Source: Ostreococcus lucimarinus (lineage: Eukaryota). From it: DNA of 64,000 bases. The notes under the pieces are model-generated. The model did no database searches. It was given only the letters and a program-made list of their open reading frames with translations, and had not been told where the DNA came from. The translations under genes were made by a program, and so were the position numbers. Position 1 is the first letter of the stretch, and each line of letters opens with the position of its first letter. The stretch lies in NCBI GenBank assembly GCA_000092065.1, contig CP000593.1. One strand, 5' to 3'. Below, piece by piece: positions 42,497 through 49,407 of this stretch.

Positions 42497-44992
42497 ATGG
42501 CGGACGAGGTCGACACCGCGCGCATGCGATCGCGCCGCGCGACGGACTCGTCGTCGGACGCGCGCGCGCGCGGACGCGCGCGACCGACGGCGCGCGCGCG
42601 CGCGCGCGTCGGATGCTGCTTCGGCGCGCGGGACGCGGCGTCGGACGACGAGGACGCGCGACGCGACGCGAGCGATGGGTCGACGAGCGCGAGCGACGCC
42701 GACGCGGGTCGGACGTCGGACGGGACGCGCGCGCGCGCGACGTCGACGGCGTCGGCGTCGACGTCGGCGTCGGCGTCGGCGGGCGAGGCGAAGGCGAGGC
42801 GGCAGAGCGTCGACTACGCGCTGCGCGCGAGTCAGGGATCGCTCGCGTCGGGGGAAGAGGCGACGGCGAACGCGAACGGAGGAGACGATGAGTTCGTCGG
42901 CGACGCGGGATCGGCGGAGCTGACGTATTTCGTGAAGCTGAACGCGAAGATGCTGGCGAAGCGACGGAGAGCGACGAAGAGCGAATTGGAACCGCTGTGC
43001 GAGGCGCTGTCGCAGACGTTTACGTTTTCTGAGCTCGATGCGAACGTCAGGCGACGCGTGGCGAGCGAAATGTTCTTCATCAACGTGCCGGAGGGGACGA
43101 TTTTGATGGAGGAGGACGAACCGGGCGACGCGTTGTATCTCATCGCCGGAGGCGAATTCGACGTGCTGCAAAATCGGCTCGGCGCCGATATCAGCGTCCT
43201 CACGCGCACGAAAGGCGATATCATCGGCGAGTTAGCTTTACTTTATAGCGTGCCGCGCTCGGCGACGGTGCGGGCGAAGACGCGGTCGCAGGTTTGGGTG
43301 TGCACGCAACAAGTCTTCAAGAGGGAGGTCAAGCACAGCGTCGAGGCGACGACGCTCGCGAAGAATTTATTCCTCGAACAAGTTCCCGTGCTCAGCGCTT
43401 TACCGATCGACACGCGGAAGTCGTTCGCGGATGCCTTGGAGACGGTCTCGTTCGACCCGTACACGGACGTTATTACCGAAGGCGAAGCGTGCGACGGTAA
43501 ATTTTACCTCGTCAATTCGGGGCGAGCGCAAGTTTCCAAGCTCGACCCGGACACGGGTGAACCGCGCACGGTGAATCACTTGTTTCGACACGACTTTTTT
43601 GGTGCTTCCGAGATCATTCGCGGTGATGAACCGCGAGAGTACACCGTGCGATGCGTGGAAACTCCTCTGGTGTGTTACGTCGTCAATCGAGACGTGTTCC
43701 TCGAGAAGCTGTCATCCGTGCGCGAAGATTTACTTCGAGAAAAGTCTCGAGAAGTCATTCGTAATCGCATGCGGCAGCTCAAGGGTGAAAAGTCGTGGCG
43801 CTCCGCCCGAATTCGCCTGTTAGGTAGCGCGCGCGTGGGAGGAAAGAAGGTGAACATTAGCATGTACGGCTCAGTAAACCCGAGGTCGTTCGCCACGGAC
43901 GTCAATCGGGAGTTGGGGTCGATCGATTTAGTGGAGAAGGAAATGCTCGGTGGAGGCACTGGTGGGCACGTGTATCGCGTTATTCAAGAAGGTATGAATG
44001 TGTCGTCACCGCGCGCCTTCGCGCTCAAGCGCGTGCGTAAGCGTGCCGTGATGGAGAGTCCGTCGCACATTTTCTGCGAAAAGGAAGTCACGAGCGAAAT
44101 CAGCCACTTTTCGTTGATGTGTCAGCACGCCAGTTTCCAAGACAGGAATCATCTGTACATGCTTTTCGACATCATGGATGGGTGTGACTTGATGGACATG
44201 CTTGCGAGCGCGGTGCAAGTGAAGTTAATTCCGACACAAATCGATGGTGAGATTCGCCACGTGCCCACGCAGATTGGCATCAGCGAAGACACGGCGCGAT
44301 ACTACACCGCCATGGTTATTCTCGCGTTCGAGTATCTGCACGGCAACCAAATCATCTATCGCGACTTGAAGCCAGAGAATGTATTGCTTGCGCTCAACGG
44401 CAAATGTAAGCTCGGAGATTTTGGCTACGCGAAGAAACTTGACGTCGGCGAACGCGCGTTTACGTTTTGCGGCACCCCTGGGTACGTGGCGCCAGAAATT
44501 GTGCTGTCCACGGGATACGGCTACGCCGTCGATTGGTGGGCGCTGGGTGTTTTGACGTACGTCACAATAACGGGACAACAGCCGTTCACGATATCAAAGG
44601 ATCCGTCCCAAAAAGACGATCCATTGAAAGTGATGCGGCGAATCGTGGACATGTCGTACGAGGTGCAATACCCCACGTACGCCACCGACGAGGCGTGCAA
44701 TTTTATTTCTCAGCTCTTGCAGCGAAACTCGGCGAAAAGGCTCGGAAACATGCAAGGCGGGGTCAGTCAGATTAAGAGACACCCTTGGTTCGCCAAGTTT
44801 GACTGGGCGCTGCTAGAGAGTGGCGAGTACACGCCCAAGCCGCTGACGCTTTCGCGGCAGTTTTTAGAAATTCAGCGCGAACGTCTTATCGAGATCGAAC
44901 GGGAATCGTTGCTCGCAACTGAAATGGATTCGGCGAGAGGACCGACGGATGCGTCTATGAATCGTGCGAACGAGATTTTCAAGGATTTTTAA
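42497..44992 (+). CDS. cGMP-dependent protein kinase-like: two cyclic-nucleotide-binding domains plus an AGC-family Ser/Thr kinase domain (831 aa)
   Basis: ATG at 42497. cNMP-binding domains (FFINVPEGTILMEEDEPGDALYLIAGGEFDV...GDIIGELALLYSVPRSATVRA and DVITEGEACDGKFYLVNSGRAQV...FGASEII). Kinase subdomains YRDLKPENVLL, KLGDFGYAKKL, GTPGYVAPE and DWWALGVLTY. AGC C-terminal extension FAKFDW. Divergent from the PPR gene with a 207-bp shared region. Confidence 0.8.
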   Translation: MADEVDTARMRSRRATDSSSDARARGRARPTARARARVGCCFGARDAASDDEDARRDASDGSTSASDADAGRTSDGTRARATSTASASTSASASAGEAKARRQSVDYALRASQGSLASGEEATANANGGDDEFVGDAGSAELTYFVKLNAKMLAKRRRATKSELEPLCEALSQTFTFSELDANVRRRVASEMFFINVPEGTILMEEDEPGDALYLIAGGEFDVLQNRLGADISVLTRTKGDIIGELALLYSVPRSATVRAKTRSQVWVCTQQVFKREVKHSVEATTLAKNLFLEQVPVLSALPIDTRKSFADALETVSFDPYTDVITEGEACDGKFYLVNSGRAQVSKLDPDTGEPRTVNHLFRHDFFGASEIIRGDEPREYTVRCVETPLVCYVVNRDVFLEKLSSVREDLLREKSREVIRNRMRQLKGEKSWRSARIRLLGSARVGGKKVNISMYGSVNPRSFATDVNRELGSIDLVEKEMLGGGTGGHVYRVIQEGMNVSSPRAFALKRVRKRAVMESPSHIFCEKEVTSEISHFSLMCQHASFQDRNHLYMLFDIMDGCDLMDMLASAVQVKLIPTQIDGEIRHVPTQIGISEDTARYYTAMVILAFEYLHGNQIIYRDLKPENVLLALNGKCKLGDFGYAKKLDVGERAFTFCGTPGYVAPEIVLSTGYGYAVDWWALGVLTYVTITGQQPFTISKDPSQKDDPLKVMRRIVDMSYEVQYPTYATDEACNFISQLLQRNSAKRLGNMQGGVSQIKRHPWFAKFDWALLESGEYTPKPLTLSRQFLEIQRERLIEIERESLLATEMDSARGPTDASMNRANEIFKDF

Positions 44993-45077: not shown

Positions 45078-48000
45078 TCATCGCTTGAACAAAAATTGCA
45101 AGTCTTCGGCAGTCAGTTGAGAAAGCGCGGCTTGATTGCCGTCCATACACCCTTCGAACACAAGCTGCTTCTTTTCTTGAAGCTCCATCATGCGTTCTTC
45201 AATCGTGCCTTTGGTCGAAAATCGAACAGCGGTCACCGGTCGAAGCTGCCCGATGCGATGTGCGCGCATCACGGCTTGCATTTCCACCGCTGGGTTCCAC
45301 CATGGCTCAAGAACGTATACGTAATTCGCCGCTTGCAAGTTGAGTCCTTCACCGCCAGATTTGAGACTCATCAAGATCACGCTGACGTTTGGATCTTCTC
45401 GGAAAGCTTGCAAATTCGCCGCGCGTTGCGTGACCGGCATGGAACCGAGAAGCTTGGCGATGGTAAACTTGGCCTTTTTCAAACGCCATTCGACGATTTC
45501 TATCATGGCTGTGTACTGCGAAAACACGATGGCTTTGTTTAAGTGCCCATTTTCTTGATTACGCATGTCTCGCAGAGCGTTAACGAGCGTCTCAACCTTT
45601 GTGCTCGACGTGTACTGCGTGAGATCGAGCTTGTTGAGAATTGACTTGTCTGGTAGCGCATCCTTGAAATTACGACTAATGGCACTCTTGACGTTTTCGA
45701 GACTTTCTGGAGAGAAGTCAATCGTCAACGCCGTGCGACAGACGGGACAAGTCACTTTTTTGCCATCCGCAGGCGCACAAGACGCGTATTGCATGATGCA
45801 CTCACGATGGAAAATGTGTTTGCAATTCGCCAGAGCCGCGTCTTCTTCCTCAATTTCGTCCTGACACATGCCACAATAATGCTTCGGAACGTCGGTGTCT
45901 GCCGGGGATTCAACTTTCGGCGCGTCAGGGGCGTCTTTTTTCACGTTCGCACTCTTCGAATGAATCACCAAGTACGGATGATCGCACGCTTGTCGCAGTC
46001 GTGCGAGGAGCTCGAAGACGTGTGCGTAGTTGTGCAAAACGCTCCCTTTCTTCACGAACGCGTCGAACTTCGAGCGCGTCAGCATGTACAGAGACTCGTA
46101 AAAGTCTTGTTCAACCTCATTGAATGTGTTTTCTTGAATGATAATCTTCAAGTCCGGCAGTCGCACGTCCTCGGCGCGTTCCGCCTTGGTCCGGCGAAGT
46201 TGCATCGGCAACAAAATGTCATTTCTAAGAGTCAGCATCGCTTTCTTGCCGTCACCGATGTAGCCATAACGGTTGATCGGGTTTAGCACGGTGCGATTGA
46301 AATGCGAATAATGCCTAGGAGCGCCGCATCCGCAGTTGGTACAAAATCGCGCCTGAGGACCGAAGTTCCAGGTGAGCGTTTTGCACTCGCAACCCTTCGT
46401 CGAACAAAAGTAAAACGCGTACGGATCCATACGCAAAAATCTCACCAAGCTGTAAAGATCGCCGATTCGATTCTGCAACGGTGTACCTGTCAAACACCAC
46501 TTATACGTGGATTTCAAAGCGTAGATACACTTGGCGGTGTTGCTCGTGCGCGCCTTGATCTTGTGCGCTTCGTCGAGAACGATTCGGTGCCACTGCGTGC
46601 GATGAAGAAGGGAATCCGACAAATCTACGTCGTCTTCGTCTTCAAACTGGCTCCCACCTTGCGAACCACCTTGCGAGGTTTGCGGAATGTCGTCGATGTT
46701 GGACGCCTTCACGTCGTCCGCTTCCTCGGTTTTCGCCGGCGTTTTCTTTTTCTTCTGTTTCTTCTTTGGCTTTCTATCTTCGCTCTCGCTATCGTCGACT
46801 AATATGATCTCATCATCTTCGCTATCACTGTCCGGTTTGTAATCACTTTCAGCCTCGCCGTCGCTAGCTTCGCGCAGACTCTTCTTCTTTTTCTTTGCGC
46901 TCGAAGTCGAAGTCGCTTTACCCGAAGCCTTCGACTTGCGCTTCTGCGCCTTCTTCACCGTACTCGCTATCGCCGCCGTTGACGCGTCAGCCAAGGCGGG
47001 CTCGTTCACTGACTCGACCTCTTTTTCTTTCTCCTCAATCGACTCCTCTTTGATATTCTCAACTACAATCGTCGGCACTGGAAGCTGCGAAATCAAAGCT
47101 TTCAGAACTTCGCTCGGCTCGGCGACGCCGTCTTCAACTTCCTCCTTGACGACGACGACGTCGCCGCCCGGGGCGAGACCTGAAGCCGCGCGTGCGCGCG
47201 CCTTGTGCGCGCCATCATACATGCTCAGCGTCTCCCGTCCGGCCATCGCCATGAGTTCCTTGTATACGTTCGCCATCGTGGGAATCCCCTTCTTCACGTC
47301 CTTGGCGCTGCCCGGCTTGATTTTCAGCGTGCGCATGGCTTTTTCGTTCGCCACGTCGCGCGTCACCTCGCGCCGCGCGAGTTTTTCCGTGCGCACGGCG
47401 TCTGGTCCACAGAAGTACTTCAAGTGCGTCACCATGGAGCGAGGTAAGTACTTTTTCCCACACCACTGACACGCCGTCAAGTGTCGGTTGATGATTTTCC
47501 GCCACTCGGCTTCGACGACGGGATACGTCGTCAACACGACGTCGTATCCTTTAAAGTCTCCTTCCACGACGTTTGCGCGATCAGCGTAATACACAAACAC
47601 GCGCAGCGACCCTTCCTCGACGCACGATTTGATCTCTTCTTCCCACTGAACGAGCGCCGACGTCGGCACCACCACGAGCGTCGGCGGCGGTCTGTCGTCG
47701 TCCGTCACCATCTCCCCCACCTCGGCGCGGTCTCGCATCCACGCCTCCTTCCTCGCCAGCAACATCGATATGCACTGTATCGTCTTCCCCATCCCCATCT
47801 CATCCGCCAATATCCCCCCCTTCGCATCGCCGCTCTCGTTATCGCACATCCACCGCAACCCCTCGCGCTGAAACCCCAACAACGGCCGCGTCAACGCCCG
47901 CGGCGCCTCCATCGGTTCCACCGCCGGCCGACGCAAAAACTCCTCGCTCGTCACGTCCAACGCCGTGTTCTCGATCTCCGGCCGATCCGGCGACAGCACC

Positions 48001-48414
48001 GTCGCCAGCAACACCTCCCGATCCCCATCCTTCAGCGCGTCCAACCCGTGCACGCGCGTCTCCAGCTCCTCCCTCGTGACTCCCTCCGCGCGATAACACT
48101 CCGGATGCATCCACTTCGATATCCATCCGTAATCGCCGCCGCGATACTTGAGCGGTTCCCCGATTCGCACCGCGTCCTTCGCGATCTTCGTCGCCGATCC
48201 GAACCCCTCGTCGTCAGTCTTTTTTCTCTTCTCTTCGCGTCGATTCGTCGATTCGCCGCACCTTTTCCCCGCACTTCCCGCACTTCCCGCGTCCGCTCTT
48301 CGCGTACTCGCACGCGTGCGTGTACGCCGCGAAAGCCTCCTCGTCGTCGTCGAATATCGGGCGCCAGGTGACGCCCTTACCGTCCCACGACGGGACGATC
48401 GTGAGTTCGACCAT
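45078..48414 (-). CDS. RAD16: DNA repair protein RAD16 ortholog (SNF2 ATPase plus C3HC4 RING) carrying an N-terminal PARP-type zinc finger; two exons: complement(48262..48414) and complement(45078..48185)
   Basis: Exon 2: LLGFQREGLRWM...GGILADEMGMGKTIQ...VVVPTSALVQWEEEI...LDEAHKIKARTSNTAKC...LTGTPLQNRIGDLYSLVRFL...RING (CGMCQDEIEE...CKHIFHRECI...CPVCR)...ILMSLKSGGEGLNLQAANYVYVLEPWWNPAVEMQAVMRAHRIGQ...LTAEDLQFLFKR is collinear with yeast Rad16 down to the last residues (LTPADLQFLFNN). Exon 1 (MVELTIVPSW...EYAKSGRGKCGKCGEK) joins the upstream in-frame extension of exon 2 (IAKDAVRIGEPLKYRGGDYGWISKWMHPECYRAEG). Together they reconstitute a zf-PARP domain like PARP1 F1 ([47 protein letters not shown]). 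Confidence 0.8.
48186..48261 (-). other. Spliceosomal intron (76 nt) of RAD16, introner-like family member (short variant)
   Basis: Minus-strand reading: donor GTGCGGCGAA; internal tcgacgaatcgacgcgaag; branch AGACTGACGACGAGGGG; acceptor GACGAAG. The intron splits the zf-PARP domain, and the flanking ORFs are in different frames. Confidence 0.75.
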
Positions 48415-48606: not shown

Positions 48607-49407
48607 TTAAGACGCGTTCGATCGACGCGACGCCGAGGGATCGGCGAACGCGCCCGGCACGGCCGCCATCGCGTCGCGCGCGCGCGCGTCGTCGAAGCCG
48701 AAACACGCGAGCACGCGAAGCGCGAACTCGAGCAGCGCCGCGTCGCACGCGTCGAACGCGGCGTCGCGCTCGCGCTCGCCCGCGGCCGAAGACGCGAGGA
48801 CGCGCTCGAGCGCCTCGAACGAGGCGCGACACGCGTCGAGGGTTCGAAAGACGTCGACGGATTCGCGAGACGCGGCGTCGCGTCTCGCCGCCGGTCCCGA
48901 AGTCGCGGATCGAGCCAGAATGGCCAGCGTGCACACCTCTCGCGCGTTCGAGTACATCTCCAGCGAATCTCGCGGATTCGTGCAATCCAGCGTCGCGCTC
49001 GTCAATCGCTCGCGAAGCGCGGCGTCGTCGAGCGTCGCGGCGTCGTCGTCGAGTTCGCGCCGCAGCGCCGCGAGTCGCCCGCGCGCGAGCGCGATCGGGC
49101 CCAACAAAAACCGCGCGTTCGCCGCCTTGCGCGCGTCCGCGACCGCCTCGAGCGGGTTCGCGCGCGCCGCGAGCGCCGGCGCGAGCGCCGGCGCGAGCGC
49201 GAGCGCGCGCAGCGCGTCGCGTCGCGTCGTCGATGTCGTCGTCGTCGTCCGGTCGGCGCGCGCGACGACGCCGCGACGCCGCGAGCGACGCGCCGGCGCG
49301 CCGCGGTCGACGCGCGCGCGCGCGCGCGCCGTCGTCGCGCGCATGTCGCCCGCGATTCGTCGTCGAGTCGACGAATGACGCGCGCGCGCGCGCATTCTCG
49401 CATGCAT
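48607..49407 (-). CDS. Possible hypothetical protein (266 aa); weak call
   Basis: ATG-initiated minus ORF. Its C-terminal 150 residues have ordinary helical composition (LEMYSNAREVCTLAILARSATSG...AAFDACDAALLEFALRVLACFGFDD), but the N-terminal part is Arg-rich. It lies in an unusually long (1 kb) gap between RAD16 and the next gene, and could instead be a shadow ORF. Confidence 0.25.
   Translation of the reverse strand: MHARMRARARHSSTRRRIAGDMRATTARARARVDRGAPARRSRRRGVVARADRTTTTTSTTRRDALRALALAPALAPALAARANPLEAVADARKAANARFLLGPIALARGRLAALRRELDDDAATLDDAALRERLTSATLDCTNPRDSLEMYSNAREVCTLAILARSATSGPAARRDAASRESVDVFRTLDACRASFEALERVLASSAAGERERDAAFDACDAALLEFALRVLACFGFDDARARDAMAAVPGAFADPSASRRSNAS

What the first reader, a model, noticed from the sequence alone, without database searches (positions are those of the whole stretch)
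45078..48414. RAD16 (NER SNF2/RING translocase) fused to an N-terminal PARP-type DNA-nick-sensing zinc finger
The 153-nt first exon ends ...EYAKSGRGKCGKCGEK and is spliced to IAKDAVRIGEPLKYRGGDYGWISKWMHPECYRAEG. Together these align residue-for-residue with the PARP1 F1 finger ([24 protein letters not shown]...[13 protein letters not shown]). The rest of the protein is a textbook Rad16. Fungal and animal Rad16-type proteins known to me lack a zf-PARP; the domain is otherwise found on PARPs, DNA ligase III and a few plant repair proteins. A nick or break sensor attached to the GG-NER ATPase/E3 would be a distinctive lineage-specific arrangement.
Basis: partly seen in the sequence, partly recalled or inferred. 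Interest (0 to 1): 0.65.

Follow-up and report, generated by a model that had tools for sequence, protein, structure and literature searches.

The report
Rad16 repair ATPase with PARP-type finger
The gene really does encode a Rad16-type DNA-repair motor and ubiquitin ligase with a PARP-like DNA-break-sensing zinc finger at its front end. However, this exact protein is already in GenBank (Ostreococcus lucimarinus) and the same layout is common across protists, so it is not a lineage-specific novelty.

Summary
Observation confirmed. On the minus strand, a 153-nt exon (48414-48262), a 76-nt GT..AG intron (48261-48186) and one long exon (48185-45078) give a 1086-aa protein, not the 1111 aa stated. 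Pfam scores are zf-PARP 53.8 bits (cut-off 39.3), SNF2, an embedded RING, and Helicase_C.

Two orthologous Ostreococcus loci encode the whole protein, finger included, as one uninterrupted ORF. The window differs from them by exactly the 76-nt intron, so the fusion is one gene.

A model of an orthologue's finger (88% identical) matches only PARP1 Zn1/Zn2 and ligase III fingers. The four zinc ligands are invariant, and the arginines aligned to the PARP1 DNA-grip arginine are conserved.

The remainder is a Rad16 orthologue: 516 bits to yeast Rad16 against 212 to Rad5.

- The spliced product is identical to XP_001421157.1 of O. lucimarinus CCE9901.
- 113 of the 120 best homologues carry the finger. 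They include green algae, kinetoplastids, euglenids, diplonemids, apicomplexans, dinoflagellates, oomycetes and other stramenopiles.
- Land plants and budding yeasts lack it.

The arrangement is therefore old and widespread. It is unstudied rather than new. The likely role is structure-specific DNA anchoring of the translocase/E3; this is inferred, not shown.

The parts
48262..48414 (-). Exon 1 (51 codons, from ATG at 48414). Holds the N-terminal hairpin and the first part of the zf-PARP finger, including ligands C45 and C48.
   Evidence: This is the first in-frame ATG, and orthologue conservation starts at MVELT/MPDLT/MEFTV.
48186..48261 (-). 76-nt GT..AG intron, phase 0, between codons K51 and I52.
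   Evidence: One search gives the sequence; read-through terminates at 48214. Intronless orthologues L001 and L002 align with exactly a 76-nt gap here.
45078..48185 (-). Exon 2 (residues 52-1086 plus the stop codon at 45078-45080).
   Evidence: The spliced product is identical to XP_001421157.1.
48310..48414 (-). Residues 1-35: a conserved N-terminal extension (LT[IV]...W[RK]P), predicted as a beta-hairpin placed before the finger. It is not part of the Pfam zf-PARP model.
   Evidence: W17 is conserved in 38 of 44 sequences and T5 in 28 of 44. AF2 strands at 4-8 and 15-19, with pLDDT about 94, on the 88%-identical orthologue.
48009..48309 (-). zf-PARP domain (residues 36-110), interrupted by the intron. 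Zinc ligands are C45, C48, H78 and C81 (C-x2-C-x29-H-x2-C).
   Evidence: Pfam 53.8 bits against a cut-off of 39.3. PDB sequence hits to PARP1 Zn1/Zn2 and Lig3. The ligands are invariant in 44 sequences. Foldseek matches only PARP1 and Lig3 fingers.
47484..47891 (-). SNF2 ATPase lobe 1, first part (residues 150-285), with Walker A GMGKT at 182-186.
   Evidence: Aligns to yeast Rad16 residues 149-293 at 38% identity.
47409..47471 (-). C2HC zinc finger inserted in lobe 1 (CQWCGKKYLPRSMVTHLKYFC, residues 290-310).
   Evidence: A regex hit in nearly all of the 115 non-yeast homologues in which motifs I and II could be located, land plants included; no hit in S. cerevisiae Rad16. C28, C31, H43 and C48 of alignment A3 are invariant. 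AF2 gives a beta-beta-alpha fold with pLDDT 85-93. No Pfam family.
46614..47201 (-). Low-complexity acidic/basic/Ser-rich insert (residues 380-575) between ATPase motifs I and II.
   Evidence: The composition is dominated by K, E, S, A and D. The motif I-II distance is 409 aa here against 111 aa in yeast Rad16.
45939..46613 (-). SNF2 lobe 1, second part (residues 576-800). Contains DEAH at 589, TGTP at 617 and a Rad16-type Cys-rich insert at 644-671 (46326-46409).
   Evidence: The insert aligns collinearly with yeast Rad16 YFCTKCDCASKDWKF..CDHCSH.
45738..45875 (-). C3HC4 RING finger (residues 822-867), embedded between the two ATPase lobes.
   Evidence: zf-RING_2 31.1 bits and zf-C3HC4 24.7 bits. 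Aligns with the yeast Rad16 RING, including the C552/H554 positions that were mutated in PMC3116912.
45249..45596 (-). Helicase_C (ATPase lobe 2, residues 915-1030), with motif VI QAVMRAHRIGQ at 1021.
   Evidence: Collinear with yeast Rad16 up to the C-terminal ...DLQFLF.

Best explanation
The locus is the Rad16 orthologue of Ostreococcus lucimarinus. It is a two-exon gene whose product has four parts:
(i) an N-terminal PARP-type CCHC zinc finger preceded by a short conserved hairpin;
(ii) a split SNF2 ATPase;
(iii) a C3HC4 RING between the ATPase lobes;
(iv) extra Cys-rich inserts.

Shown here:
- It is a single gene and a single protein.
- The finger has the zf-PARP sequence signature and fold. 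The residues aligned to the PARP1 DNA-contact positions are largely conserved.
- The ATPase and RING catalytic motifs are intact.
- The architecture is shared by Rad16 orthologues of many eukaryotic supergroups. It is missing from land plants and budding yeasts, so it is old and was lost in those lines.

Inferred mechanism:
- The finger acts as a sequence-independent, structure-specific DNA-binding module. It would bind nicks, gaps, ends or otherwise exposed bases, as PARP1 Zn1/Zn2 and the ligase III finger do.
- This would tether or orient the Rad16 double-strand DNA translocase and its E3 ligase activity at DNA discontinuities or distorted sites during global-genome nucleotide excision repair.
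- In effect it would supply in cis part of the DNA targeting that budding yeast obtains from partner proteins.
For: Gene model.
- The exon/intron structure and frame are established.
- The product is identical to XP_001421157.1.
- Orthologues L001 and L002 are intronless single ORFs with the same downstream cNMP-binding/kinase gene.
- The window has an exact 76-nt insertion relative to them.

Finger.
- Pfam score is above the gathering cut-off, and PDB sequence hits are to PARP1 and Lig3.
- C45, C48, H78 and C81 are invariant and W76 is at least 90% conserved in 44 diverse sequences.
- The AF2 model has pLDDT 93.1.
- All 28 Foldseek PDB hits with E<=1e-3 are PARP1 Zn1/Zn2 or the Lig3 finger, with TM-score up to 0.81.

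DNA-contact positions.
- R42 aligns with PARP1 R18/R122, the 'phosphate backbone grip' (PMC8150716), and is Arg in 39 of 44 sequences.
- R58 is Arg in 38 of 44.
- Y70 aligns with the Zn2 base-stacking-loop Leu and is Tyr or Phe in 29 of 44.

Rad16 identity.
- 408+108 bits and 42% identity over 510 aa to S. cerevisiae Rad16, collinear through the Cys-rich insert, RING and lobe 2.
- Only 211.7 bits to Rad5.
- All-against-all scores among Rad16s of algae, plants, kinetoplastids, apicomplexans, oomycetes and yeasts are a uniform 470-730 bits.
- JGI names cluster members 'DNA repair protein RAD16'.

Catalytic motifs are intact. Yeast Rad16 needs both its ATPase and its RING for GG-NER (PMC3116912).

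Distribution.
Against: - There is no biochemical or genetic evidence for DNA-break binding by any Rad16-type finger. No paper in the searchable library mentions Rad16 together with a PARP-type finger.
- The loop equivalent to the PARP1 Zn1 F44 base-stacking loop differs in sequence (RGGDYGW here, against SPMFDGK), so substrate preference may differ.
- Orthology was judged from pairwise scores and collinearity. No rooted tree with Rad5, HLTF, SHPRH or Ris1 outgroups was built, and no reciprocal search of whole proteomes was done.
- No transcript data exist for this species.
- Whether Ostreococcus has a Rad7 partner was not examined.
Confidence: 0.6

Rival explanations
1. The finger is a general chromatin or DNA anchor, or an intramolecular regulatory module (for example gating the ATPase or RING), rather than a sensor of breaks. 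It would keep the zf-PARP fold but not the nick or end specificity.
For: The loop corresponding to the PARP1 Zn1 base-stacking loop differs in sequence, and there is an extra conserved N-terminal hairpin that PARP1 lacks. In PARP1, a Zn1 loop residue (D45) serves inter-domain signalling rather than DNA binding (PMC8150716). Yeast Rad16 has a Lys-rich N-terminus in place of the finger (the query sequence).
Against: The backbone-grip arginine equivalents and a hydrophobic or aromatic loop residue are conserved across supergroups. Every solved structure that the model matches at E<=1e-3 is a PARP1 or ligase III finger, many of them solved bound to DNA breaks.
Confidence: 0.25
2. The zf-PARP exon belongs to a separate upstream gene or transcript, and the fusion is a gene-model artefact.
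For: There are no transcript data for this species. Several automatic models miss exon 1: P0001 (1075 aa) has a wrong N-terminus, and the JGI models are 1010 aa.
Against: Two orthologous loci have finger and ATPase in one uninterrupted ORF, and the window differs by exactly the 76-nt intron. Exon 2 alone would carry only half a finger (H78 and C81 without C45 and C48). Complete transcript-derived ORFs with the fusion exist in six other genera. The upstream ORF ends at 48607, about 190 nt before the ATG.
Confidence: 0.02
3. The protein is not the Rad16 orthologue but a different RING-containing SNF2 protein (Rad5/HLTF, SHPRH or Ris1-like), or a distinct paralogous subfamily with another function such as post-replication repair.
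For: The nearest solved structure is Rad5, because no Rad16 chain turned up in the PDB sequence search. The protein has inserts that yeast Rad16 lacks: the C2HC finger and a roughly 300-aa longer motif I-II spacing. No rooted tree was built.
Against: The score to yeast Rad16 is about 2.4 times the score to Rad5, with end-to-end collinearity that includes the Rad16-type Cys-rich insert. No HIRAN, PHD or H15 domain is detected. Land-plant proteins named RAD16 share the C2HC insert and score 620-730 bits. Only one O. tauri and one Micromonas commoda protein are named among the 120 best hits.
Confidence: 0.08

Closest known systems
Saccharomyces cerevisiae Rad16 (with Rad7, the GG-NER translocase and E3 ligase)
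   Same: A split SNF2 ATPase with all motifs, a C3HC4 RING embedded between the lobes, a Cys-rich insert after motif III, and a collinear C-terminus ending in ...DLQFLF. Identity is 42% over 510 aa. The Walker A Lys and the RING Cys/His positions mutated in yeast are conserved.
   Different: Yeast Rad16 has no zf-PARP, no C2HC finger and only 111 aa between motifs I and II, against 409 aa here. Its N-terminus is a Lys-rich tail instead of a folded finger.
PARP1 zinc fingers Zn1/Zn2 and the DNA ligase III-alpha finger (Pfam PF00645)
   Same: CCHC ligands with the family spacing, the fold (TM-score up to 0.81), the conserved Trp before the His ligand, and the backbone-grip Arg equivalent.
   Different: There is a single finger rather than a tandem pair. 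It has an extra conserved N-terminal hairpin and a different base-stacking loop sequence. It is attached to a translocase/E3 rather than to an ADP-ribosyl transferase or a ligase.
Database orthologues with the same architecture, for example Plasmodium 'DNA repair protein rhp16', Leishmania 'putative DNA repair protein', O. tauri and Micromonas commoda SNF2 proteins, and Phytophthora/Plasmopara RAD16
   Same: The same domain order: zf-PARP, SNF2 with the C2HC insert, RING, Helicase_C. The finger lies in most cases roughly 60-100 aa upstream of motif I.
   Different: The length and composition of the low-complexity inserts differ. Oomycete proteins add a PHD finger (PF00628), dinoflagellate proteins a SAP domain (PF02037), and some stramenopile proteins an HMG box (PF00505).

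Membership tests
zf-PARP (Pfam PF00645) | Profile HMM score above the curated gathering threshold | tested here: met
   53.8 bits against a cut-off of 39.3, E=3.3e-14, covering profile positions 1-83 of 87.
zf-PARP (Pfam PF00645) | CCHC zinc ligands, C-x2-C-x(~28-37)-H-x2-C | tested here: met
   C45-x2-C48-x29-H78-x2-C81. All four are invariant in 44 diverse Rad16-type fingers.
zf-PARP (Pfam PF00645) | Three-dimensional fold of the PARP1 and Lig3 fingers | tested here: met
   AF2 model with pLDDT 93.1, made on an orthologue whose finger is 88% identical. All 28 Foldseek PDB hits with E<=1e-3 are PARP1 Zn1/Zn2 or the Lig3 finger, with rmsd of about 2.6 A for the best. The window's own spliced sequence could not be submitted.
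zf-PARP (Pfam PF00645) | DNA-contact residues: the phosphate-backbone-grip Arg and a hydrophobic base-stacking loop | tested here: inconclusive
   R42, the equivalent of R18/R122, is conserved in 39 of 44 sequences. Y70/W72/I73 occupy the loop, but the loop sequence differs from Zn1 and the alignment there is gap-dependent.
zf-PARP (Pfam PF00645) | Binding to DNA nicks, gaps or ends | not testable with these tools
   Requires EMSA or anisotropy measurements with recombinant protein.
Rad16 (Rad5/16-like group of SNF2 ATPases) | Complete SNF2 ATPase motifs (Walker A, DEAH, motif VI) | tested here: met
   GMGKT at 182, DEAH at 589, QAVMRAHRIGQ at 1021. SNF2-rel_dom 194.9 bits and Helicase_C 74.3 bits.
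Rad16 (Rad5/16-like group of SNF2 ATPases) | C3HC4 RING embedded between the ATPase lobes | tested here: met
   Residues 822-867. zf-C3HC4 scores 24.7 (cut-off 21) and zf-RING_2 31.1 (cut-off 27.3). Aligned to the yeast Rad16 RING.
Rad16 (Rad5/16-like group of SNF2 ATPases) | Closer to bona fide Rad16 than to other subfamilies | tested here: met
   516 summed bits to S. cerevisiae Rad16 against 211.7 bits to K. lactis Rad5. Comparison with SHPRH, Ris1 and HLTF and a rooted tree were not done.
Rad16 (Rad5/16-like group of SNF2 ATPases) | Absence of the N-terminal domains that define sister subfamilies (HIRAN, PHD/H15) | tested here: met
   No such Pfam hits at E<=1.
Rad16 (Rad5/16-like group of SNF2 ATPases) | Works with Rad7 in global-genome NER; mutants are UV sensitive | not testable with these tools
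   Needs genetics or biochemistry. A Rad7 orthologue in O. lucimarinus was not searched for.

The most novel reading that the evidence does not exclude
The zf-PARP-plus-C2HC form may be the ancestral eukaryotic Rad16. If so, the well-studied budding-yeast protein is a stripped-down derivative. In most protists Rad16 would then sense DNA discontinuities or distorted DNA directly through its own finger. That would couple break or lesion recognition to a translocase/E3 without PARP. From my own recollection, not checked here, some of these lineages have no finger-bearing PARP (kinetoplastid PARPs) or no PARP at all (Plasmodium).
Probability: 0.3. Interest if true: 0.5.

Novelty: already known. 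Interest (0 to 1): 0.3.

Why it matters
Everything known about how Rad16 works comes from budding yeast, and budding-yeast Rad16 lacks two zinc modules that nearly all other Rad16 orthologues sampled here carry: the N-terminal PARP-type finger and a C2HC finger inside ATPase lobe 1. If the finger targets the translocase/E3 to nicks, gaps or distorted DNA, then global-genome repair in algae, kinetoplastids, apicomplexans and oomycetes recognises its substrate differently from the yeast model. That can be tested in tractable parasites and in O. tauri. As a genome-scan finding, however, it adds nothing new. The protein and its domain architecture are already in public databases, and the claimed lineage specificity is wrong.

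Tried and rejected
I used the O. tauri-type orthologue instead.
- A profile search with the N-terminal alignment A2 through the word-indexed database returned only 11 short fragments and gave no new taxa.
- The exhaustive representative search with the same profile found 4410 clusters at E<=1e-3. The top of the list is dominated by multi-finger proteins (up to 11 matched stretches), presumably PARP- or ZDP-like, and carries no names. It could therefore not refine the Rad16-specific distribution.
- Literature searches for Rad16 together with any spelling of 'PARP-type zinc finger' found nothing. 'zf-PARP' plus 'SNF2' found only incidental domain lists for Toxoplasma and T. cruzi.
- The C2HC insert was considered as a UBZ4-like ubiquitin-binding finger. 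Pfam gives no hit. Foldseek gives no match below E=0.3, only weak matches, many of them to small zinc fingers of various types (C2H2, the TAX1BP1 UBZ, Sgf73, TRAF). This is left open.
- The idea that the finger exon is a separate gene is rejected on the evidence of the intronless orthologues.
- No tRNA genes were found in the window.
Full report
**What is in the sequence**

The feature lies on the minus strand. ATG at 48414 is the first in-frame ATG, and it opens a 153-nt exon ending ...EYAKSGRGKCGKCGEK at 48262. The next 76 nt (48261-48186) begin with GT and end with AG. Their length is not a multiple of three, and reading through them runs into a stop at 48214. The long ORF from 48185 down to the stop at 45078-45080 begins IAKDAVRIGEPLKYRGGDYGWISKWMHPECYRAEG. 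Joining the two exons gives 1086 residues.

**Is the resemblance real?**

- Pfam scores the spliced protein at 53.8 bits for zf-PARP (gathering cut-off 39.3, E=3.3e-14, residues 36-110).
- The other Pfam scores are 194.9 for SNF2-rel_dom, 74.3 for Helicase_C, 31.1 for zf-RING_2 and 24.7 for zf-C3HC4.
- Against the sequences of solved structures, the N-terminal 142 residues hit only PARP1 Zn1 and Zn2 (about 1e-6 to 1e-7 each) and the DNA ligase III finger (1.4e-6).
- The ligands follow C45-x2-C48-x29-H78-x2-C81.

**Is it one gene?**

No RNA data are available for this species, but comparative evidence settles the question. Two related Ostreococcus contigs, L001 (product P0004, 81% identical) and L002 (P0006, 74% identical), have the same convergent downstream neighbour, a cNMP-binding protein kinase, as the window does at 42497-44992. 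In both, the complete protein, finger included, is one uninterrupted ORF of 3297 or 3432 nt. In a DNA alignment the window differs from them at this point by exactly one 76-nt insertion, located at the predicted intron.

Without exon 1 the protein would keep H78 and C81 but lose C45 and C48. Complete transcript-derived ORFs with the same fusion exist in other lineages. The spliced product is identical, residue for residue, to XP_001421157.1 / ABO99450.1 / UniRef100_A4S6V0, 'predicted protein [Ostreococcus lucimarinus CCE9901]'. This identifies the source of the window and shows that the gene model is the published one.

**The finger**

- The model has mean pLDDT 93.1.
- All 28 Foldseek matches in the PDB with E<=1e-3 are PARP1 Zn1/Zn2 or the ligase III finger. 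The best have TM-scores up to 0.81 and rmsd of about 2.6 A.
- Across 44 Rad16-type fingers from very different eukaryotes, the four ligands are invariant and W76, G60 and G98 are at least 90% conserved.
- R42 aligns with PARP1 R18/R122, the 'phosphate backbone grip' residue (PMC8150716), and is Arg in 39 of 44 sequences. R58 is Arg in 38 of 44.
- In the alignment to Zn2, Y70 falls on the Leu of the base-stacking loop and is Tyr or Phe in 29 of 44. I73 is Ile in 34 of 44.
- That loop differs in sequence from Zn1, so the exact DNA structure recognised cannot be read off.
- A short conserved extension (LT[IV]...W[RK]P, residues 1-19) precedes the finger. It is predicted as a beta-hairpin and is not part of the Pfam model.

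**The rest of the protein**

The database returned an identical 790-aa protein, with close relatives named Rad16p or RAD16, so the comparison rests on a real sequence.

- The window protein matches it with 408 + 108 bits and 42% identity over 510 residues.
- The match is collinear through motif II, the Cys-rich insert (YFCSTKGCECK...CTNCGC against YFCTKCDCASK...CDHCSH), the RING, lobe 2 and the final ...DLQFLF.
- The best solved relative, K. lactis Rad5, scores only 211.7 bits.
- All-against-all scores among Rad16-named proteins of a land plant, an oomycete, Plasmodium, Leishmania, Chloropicon and three yeasts are uniformly 470-730 bits, as expected of a single orthologous group.
- Walker A, DEAH and motif VI are intact, as are the RING ligands that align with the positions mutated in yeast (C552, H554).
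- No HIRAN, PHD or H15 domain is present.

I did not build a rooted tree with all sister subfamilies, so orthology is well supported but not formally proven.

**Distribution**

Of the 120 best homologues, 113 have the finger at the same place upstream of ATPase motif I.

Named proteins with the finger come from:
- Green algae: O. tauri, Micromonas commoda, Chloropicon primus.
- Kinetoplastids: Leishmania, Leptomonas, Novymonas, Phytomonas, Trypanosoma rangeli, Perkinsela.
- Apicomplexans: Plasmodium ('DNA repair protein rhp16'), Eimeria, Cryptosporidium felis.
- Perkinsus and the dinoflagellate Durusdinium.
- Oomycetes: Phytophthora, Peronospora, Plasmopara, Aphanomyces.
- Other stramenopiles: Nannochloropsis, Aureococcus.

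Transcriptome-derived complete ORFs add the Prasinococcus cluster, Entosiphon (a euglenid), Diplonema, Karlodinium, Apocalathium and Gymnodinium. One record labelled Batrachochytrium salamandrivorans also has the finger; I could not verify that record's origin.

Among those 120, the hits with no detectable finger include the land-plant protein (Nyssa, P0114) with two unnamed proteins that look like it (P0108, P0115), and a Pavlova model (P0107). All 120 best relatives of yeast Rad16, named where named as Saccharomycotina yeasts, lack PF00645. Several apparent absences among Mamiellales-like metagenome models (identified as such only by similarity) are truncated gene models that start inside the finger. 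The simplest reading is an old fusion that was lost in some lines, not a lineage-specific gain.

**Literature**

No paper in the searchable library contains Rad16 together with any form of 'PARP-type zinc finger'. The domain combination appears only in passing:
- in a figure legend listing the domains of Toxoplasma SNF2 proteins (PMC12215852);
- in a list of domains found in T. cruzi RING E3 ligases (PMC5976635).

The arrangement is therefore recorded in databases but, as far as I could see, neither discussed nor tested.

**How it most likely works**

What is established for yeast: Rad16 is a DNA translocase and, through its RING, part of an E3 ligase. Both activities are needed for global-genome NER (PMC3116912).

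What is established for PARP1 fingers: they bind DNA breaks independently of sequence, through the backbone grip and the base-stacking loop (PMC8150716).

What I infer: the Rad16 finger is a structure-specific DNA-binding module. It would tether or orient the translocase/E3 at nicks, gaps, ends or distorted DNA. I put about 0.5 on that specific mechanism. I put about 0.9 on the structural statement that this is one gene encoding a Rad16 orthologue with a genuine, conserved zf-PARP finger. The main rival is that the finger is a generic DNA anchor or an intramolecular regulator.

**Verdict**

The 'distinctive lineage-specific' interpretation is not supported. The protein and its architecture are already public. 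Some interest remains because the yeast model lacks two zinc modules that most other Rad16 proteins sampled here have, and nobody appears to have tested them.

Noticed in passing
window 47409-47471 (-), residues 290-310; conserved flank to 47214: A C2HC zinc finger (CQWCGKKYLPRSMVTHLKYFC, followed by the conserved GPDAVRT..K..ANEKAMRTLKI) is inserted in ATPase lobe 1 between motifs I and II. It is present in nearly all of the 115 non-yeast Rad16 homologues that could be checked, land plants included, and absent from S. cerevisiae Rad16. It has no Pfam family. AF2 predicts a beta-beta-alpha finger (pLDDT 85-93). Foldseek finds no significant PDB match.
   Followed up: partly
window 48186-48261 versus L001:1501-1800 and L002:1684-1980: The 76-nt intron that splits the finger in O. 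lucimarinus is absent from two related Ostreococcus metagenome contigs (81% and 74% protein identity), so intron presence varies within the genus. A Micromonas-like model (P0012) shows a read-through insertion about three codons upstream, which suggests an intron near but not at the same site.
   Followed up: partly
window 45078-48414: There is a strong GC gradient within the gene. The 5' third is 59-66% GC, while the 3' part (45078-46877) is 49-51% GC, well below the window's typical 55-75%.
   Followed up: no
database models P0001, P0242-P0244 and P0010: Several public gene models of this orthologue are wrong at the N-terminus. The metagenome models miss exon 1 and so hide two zinc ligands. 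The NCBI O. tauri model (1005 aa) appears to be extended into the C-terminus of the upstream gene, and it skips the region containing ATPase motif I.
   Followed up: partly
window 42497-44992 (+): The convergent neighbour is an 831-aa protein with two cNMP-binding domains and a protein kinase domain (PKG-like). Its stop lies only 85 nt from the Rad16 stop. The same neighbour sits downstream in L001 and L002, so synteny is conserved.
   Followed up: partly
window 48607-49407 (-): The upstream neighbour ORF (266 aa, Ala/Arg-rich) has no Pfam match. Its C-terminal motif (..FDACDAALLEFALRVLACFGF..) reappears at the start of the O. tauri Rad16 model P0010, which is the source of that chimeric model.
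   Followed up: no
one search hit list (homologues, not the window): Rad16-type proteins with the finger have gained further lineage-specific domains: SAP (PF02037) in dinoflagellates, PHD (PF00628) in oomycetes, and an HMG box (PF00505/PF09011) in two unnamed JGI/ENA proteins (P0076, P0083).
   Followed up: no
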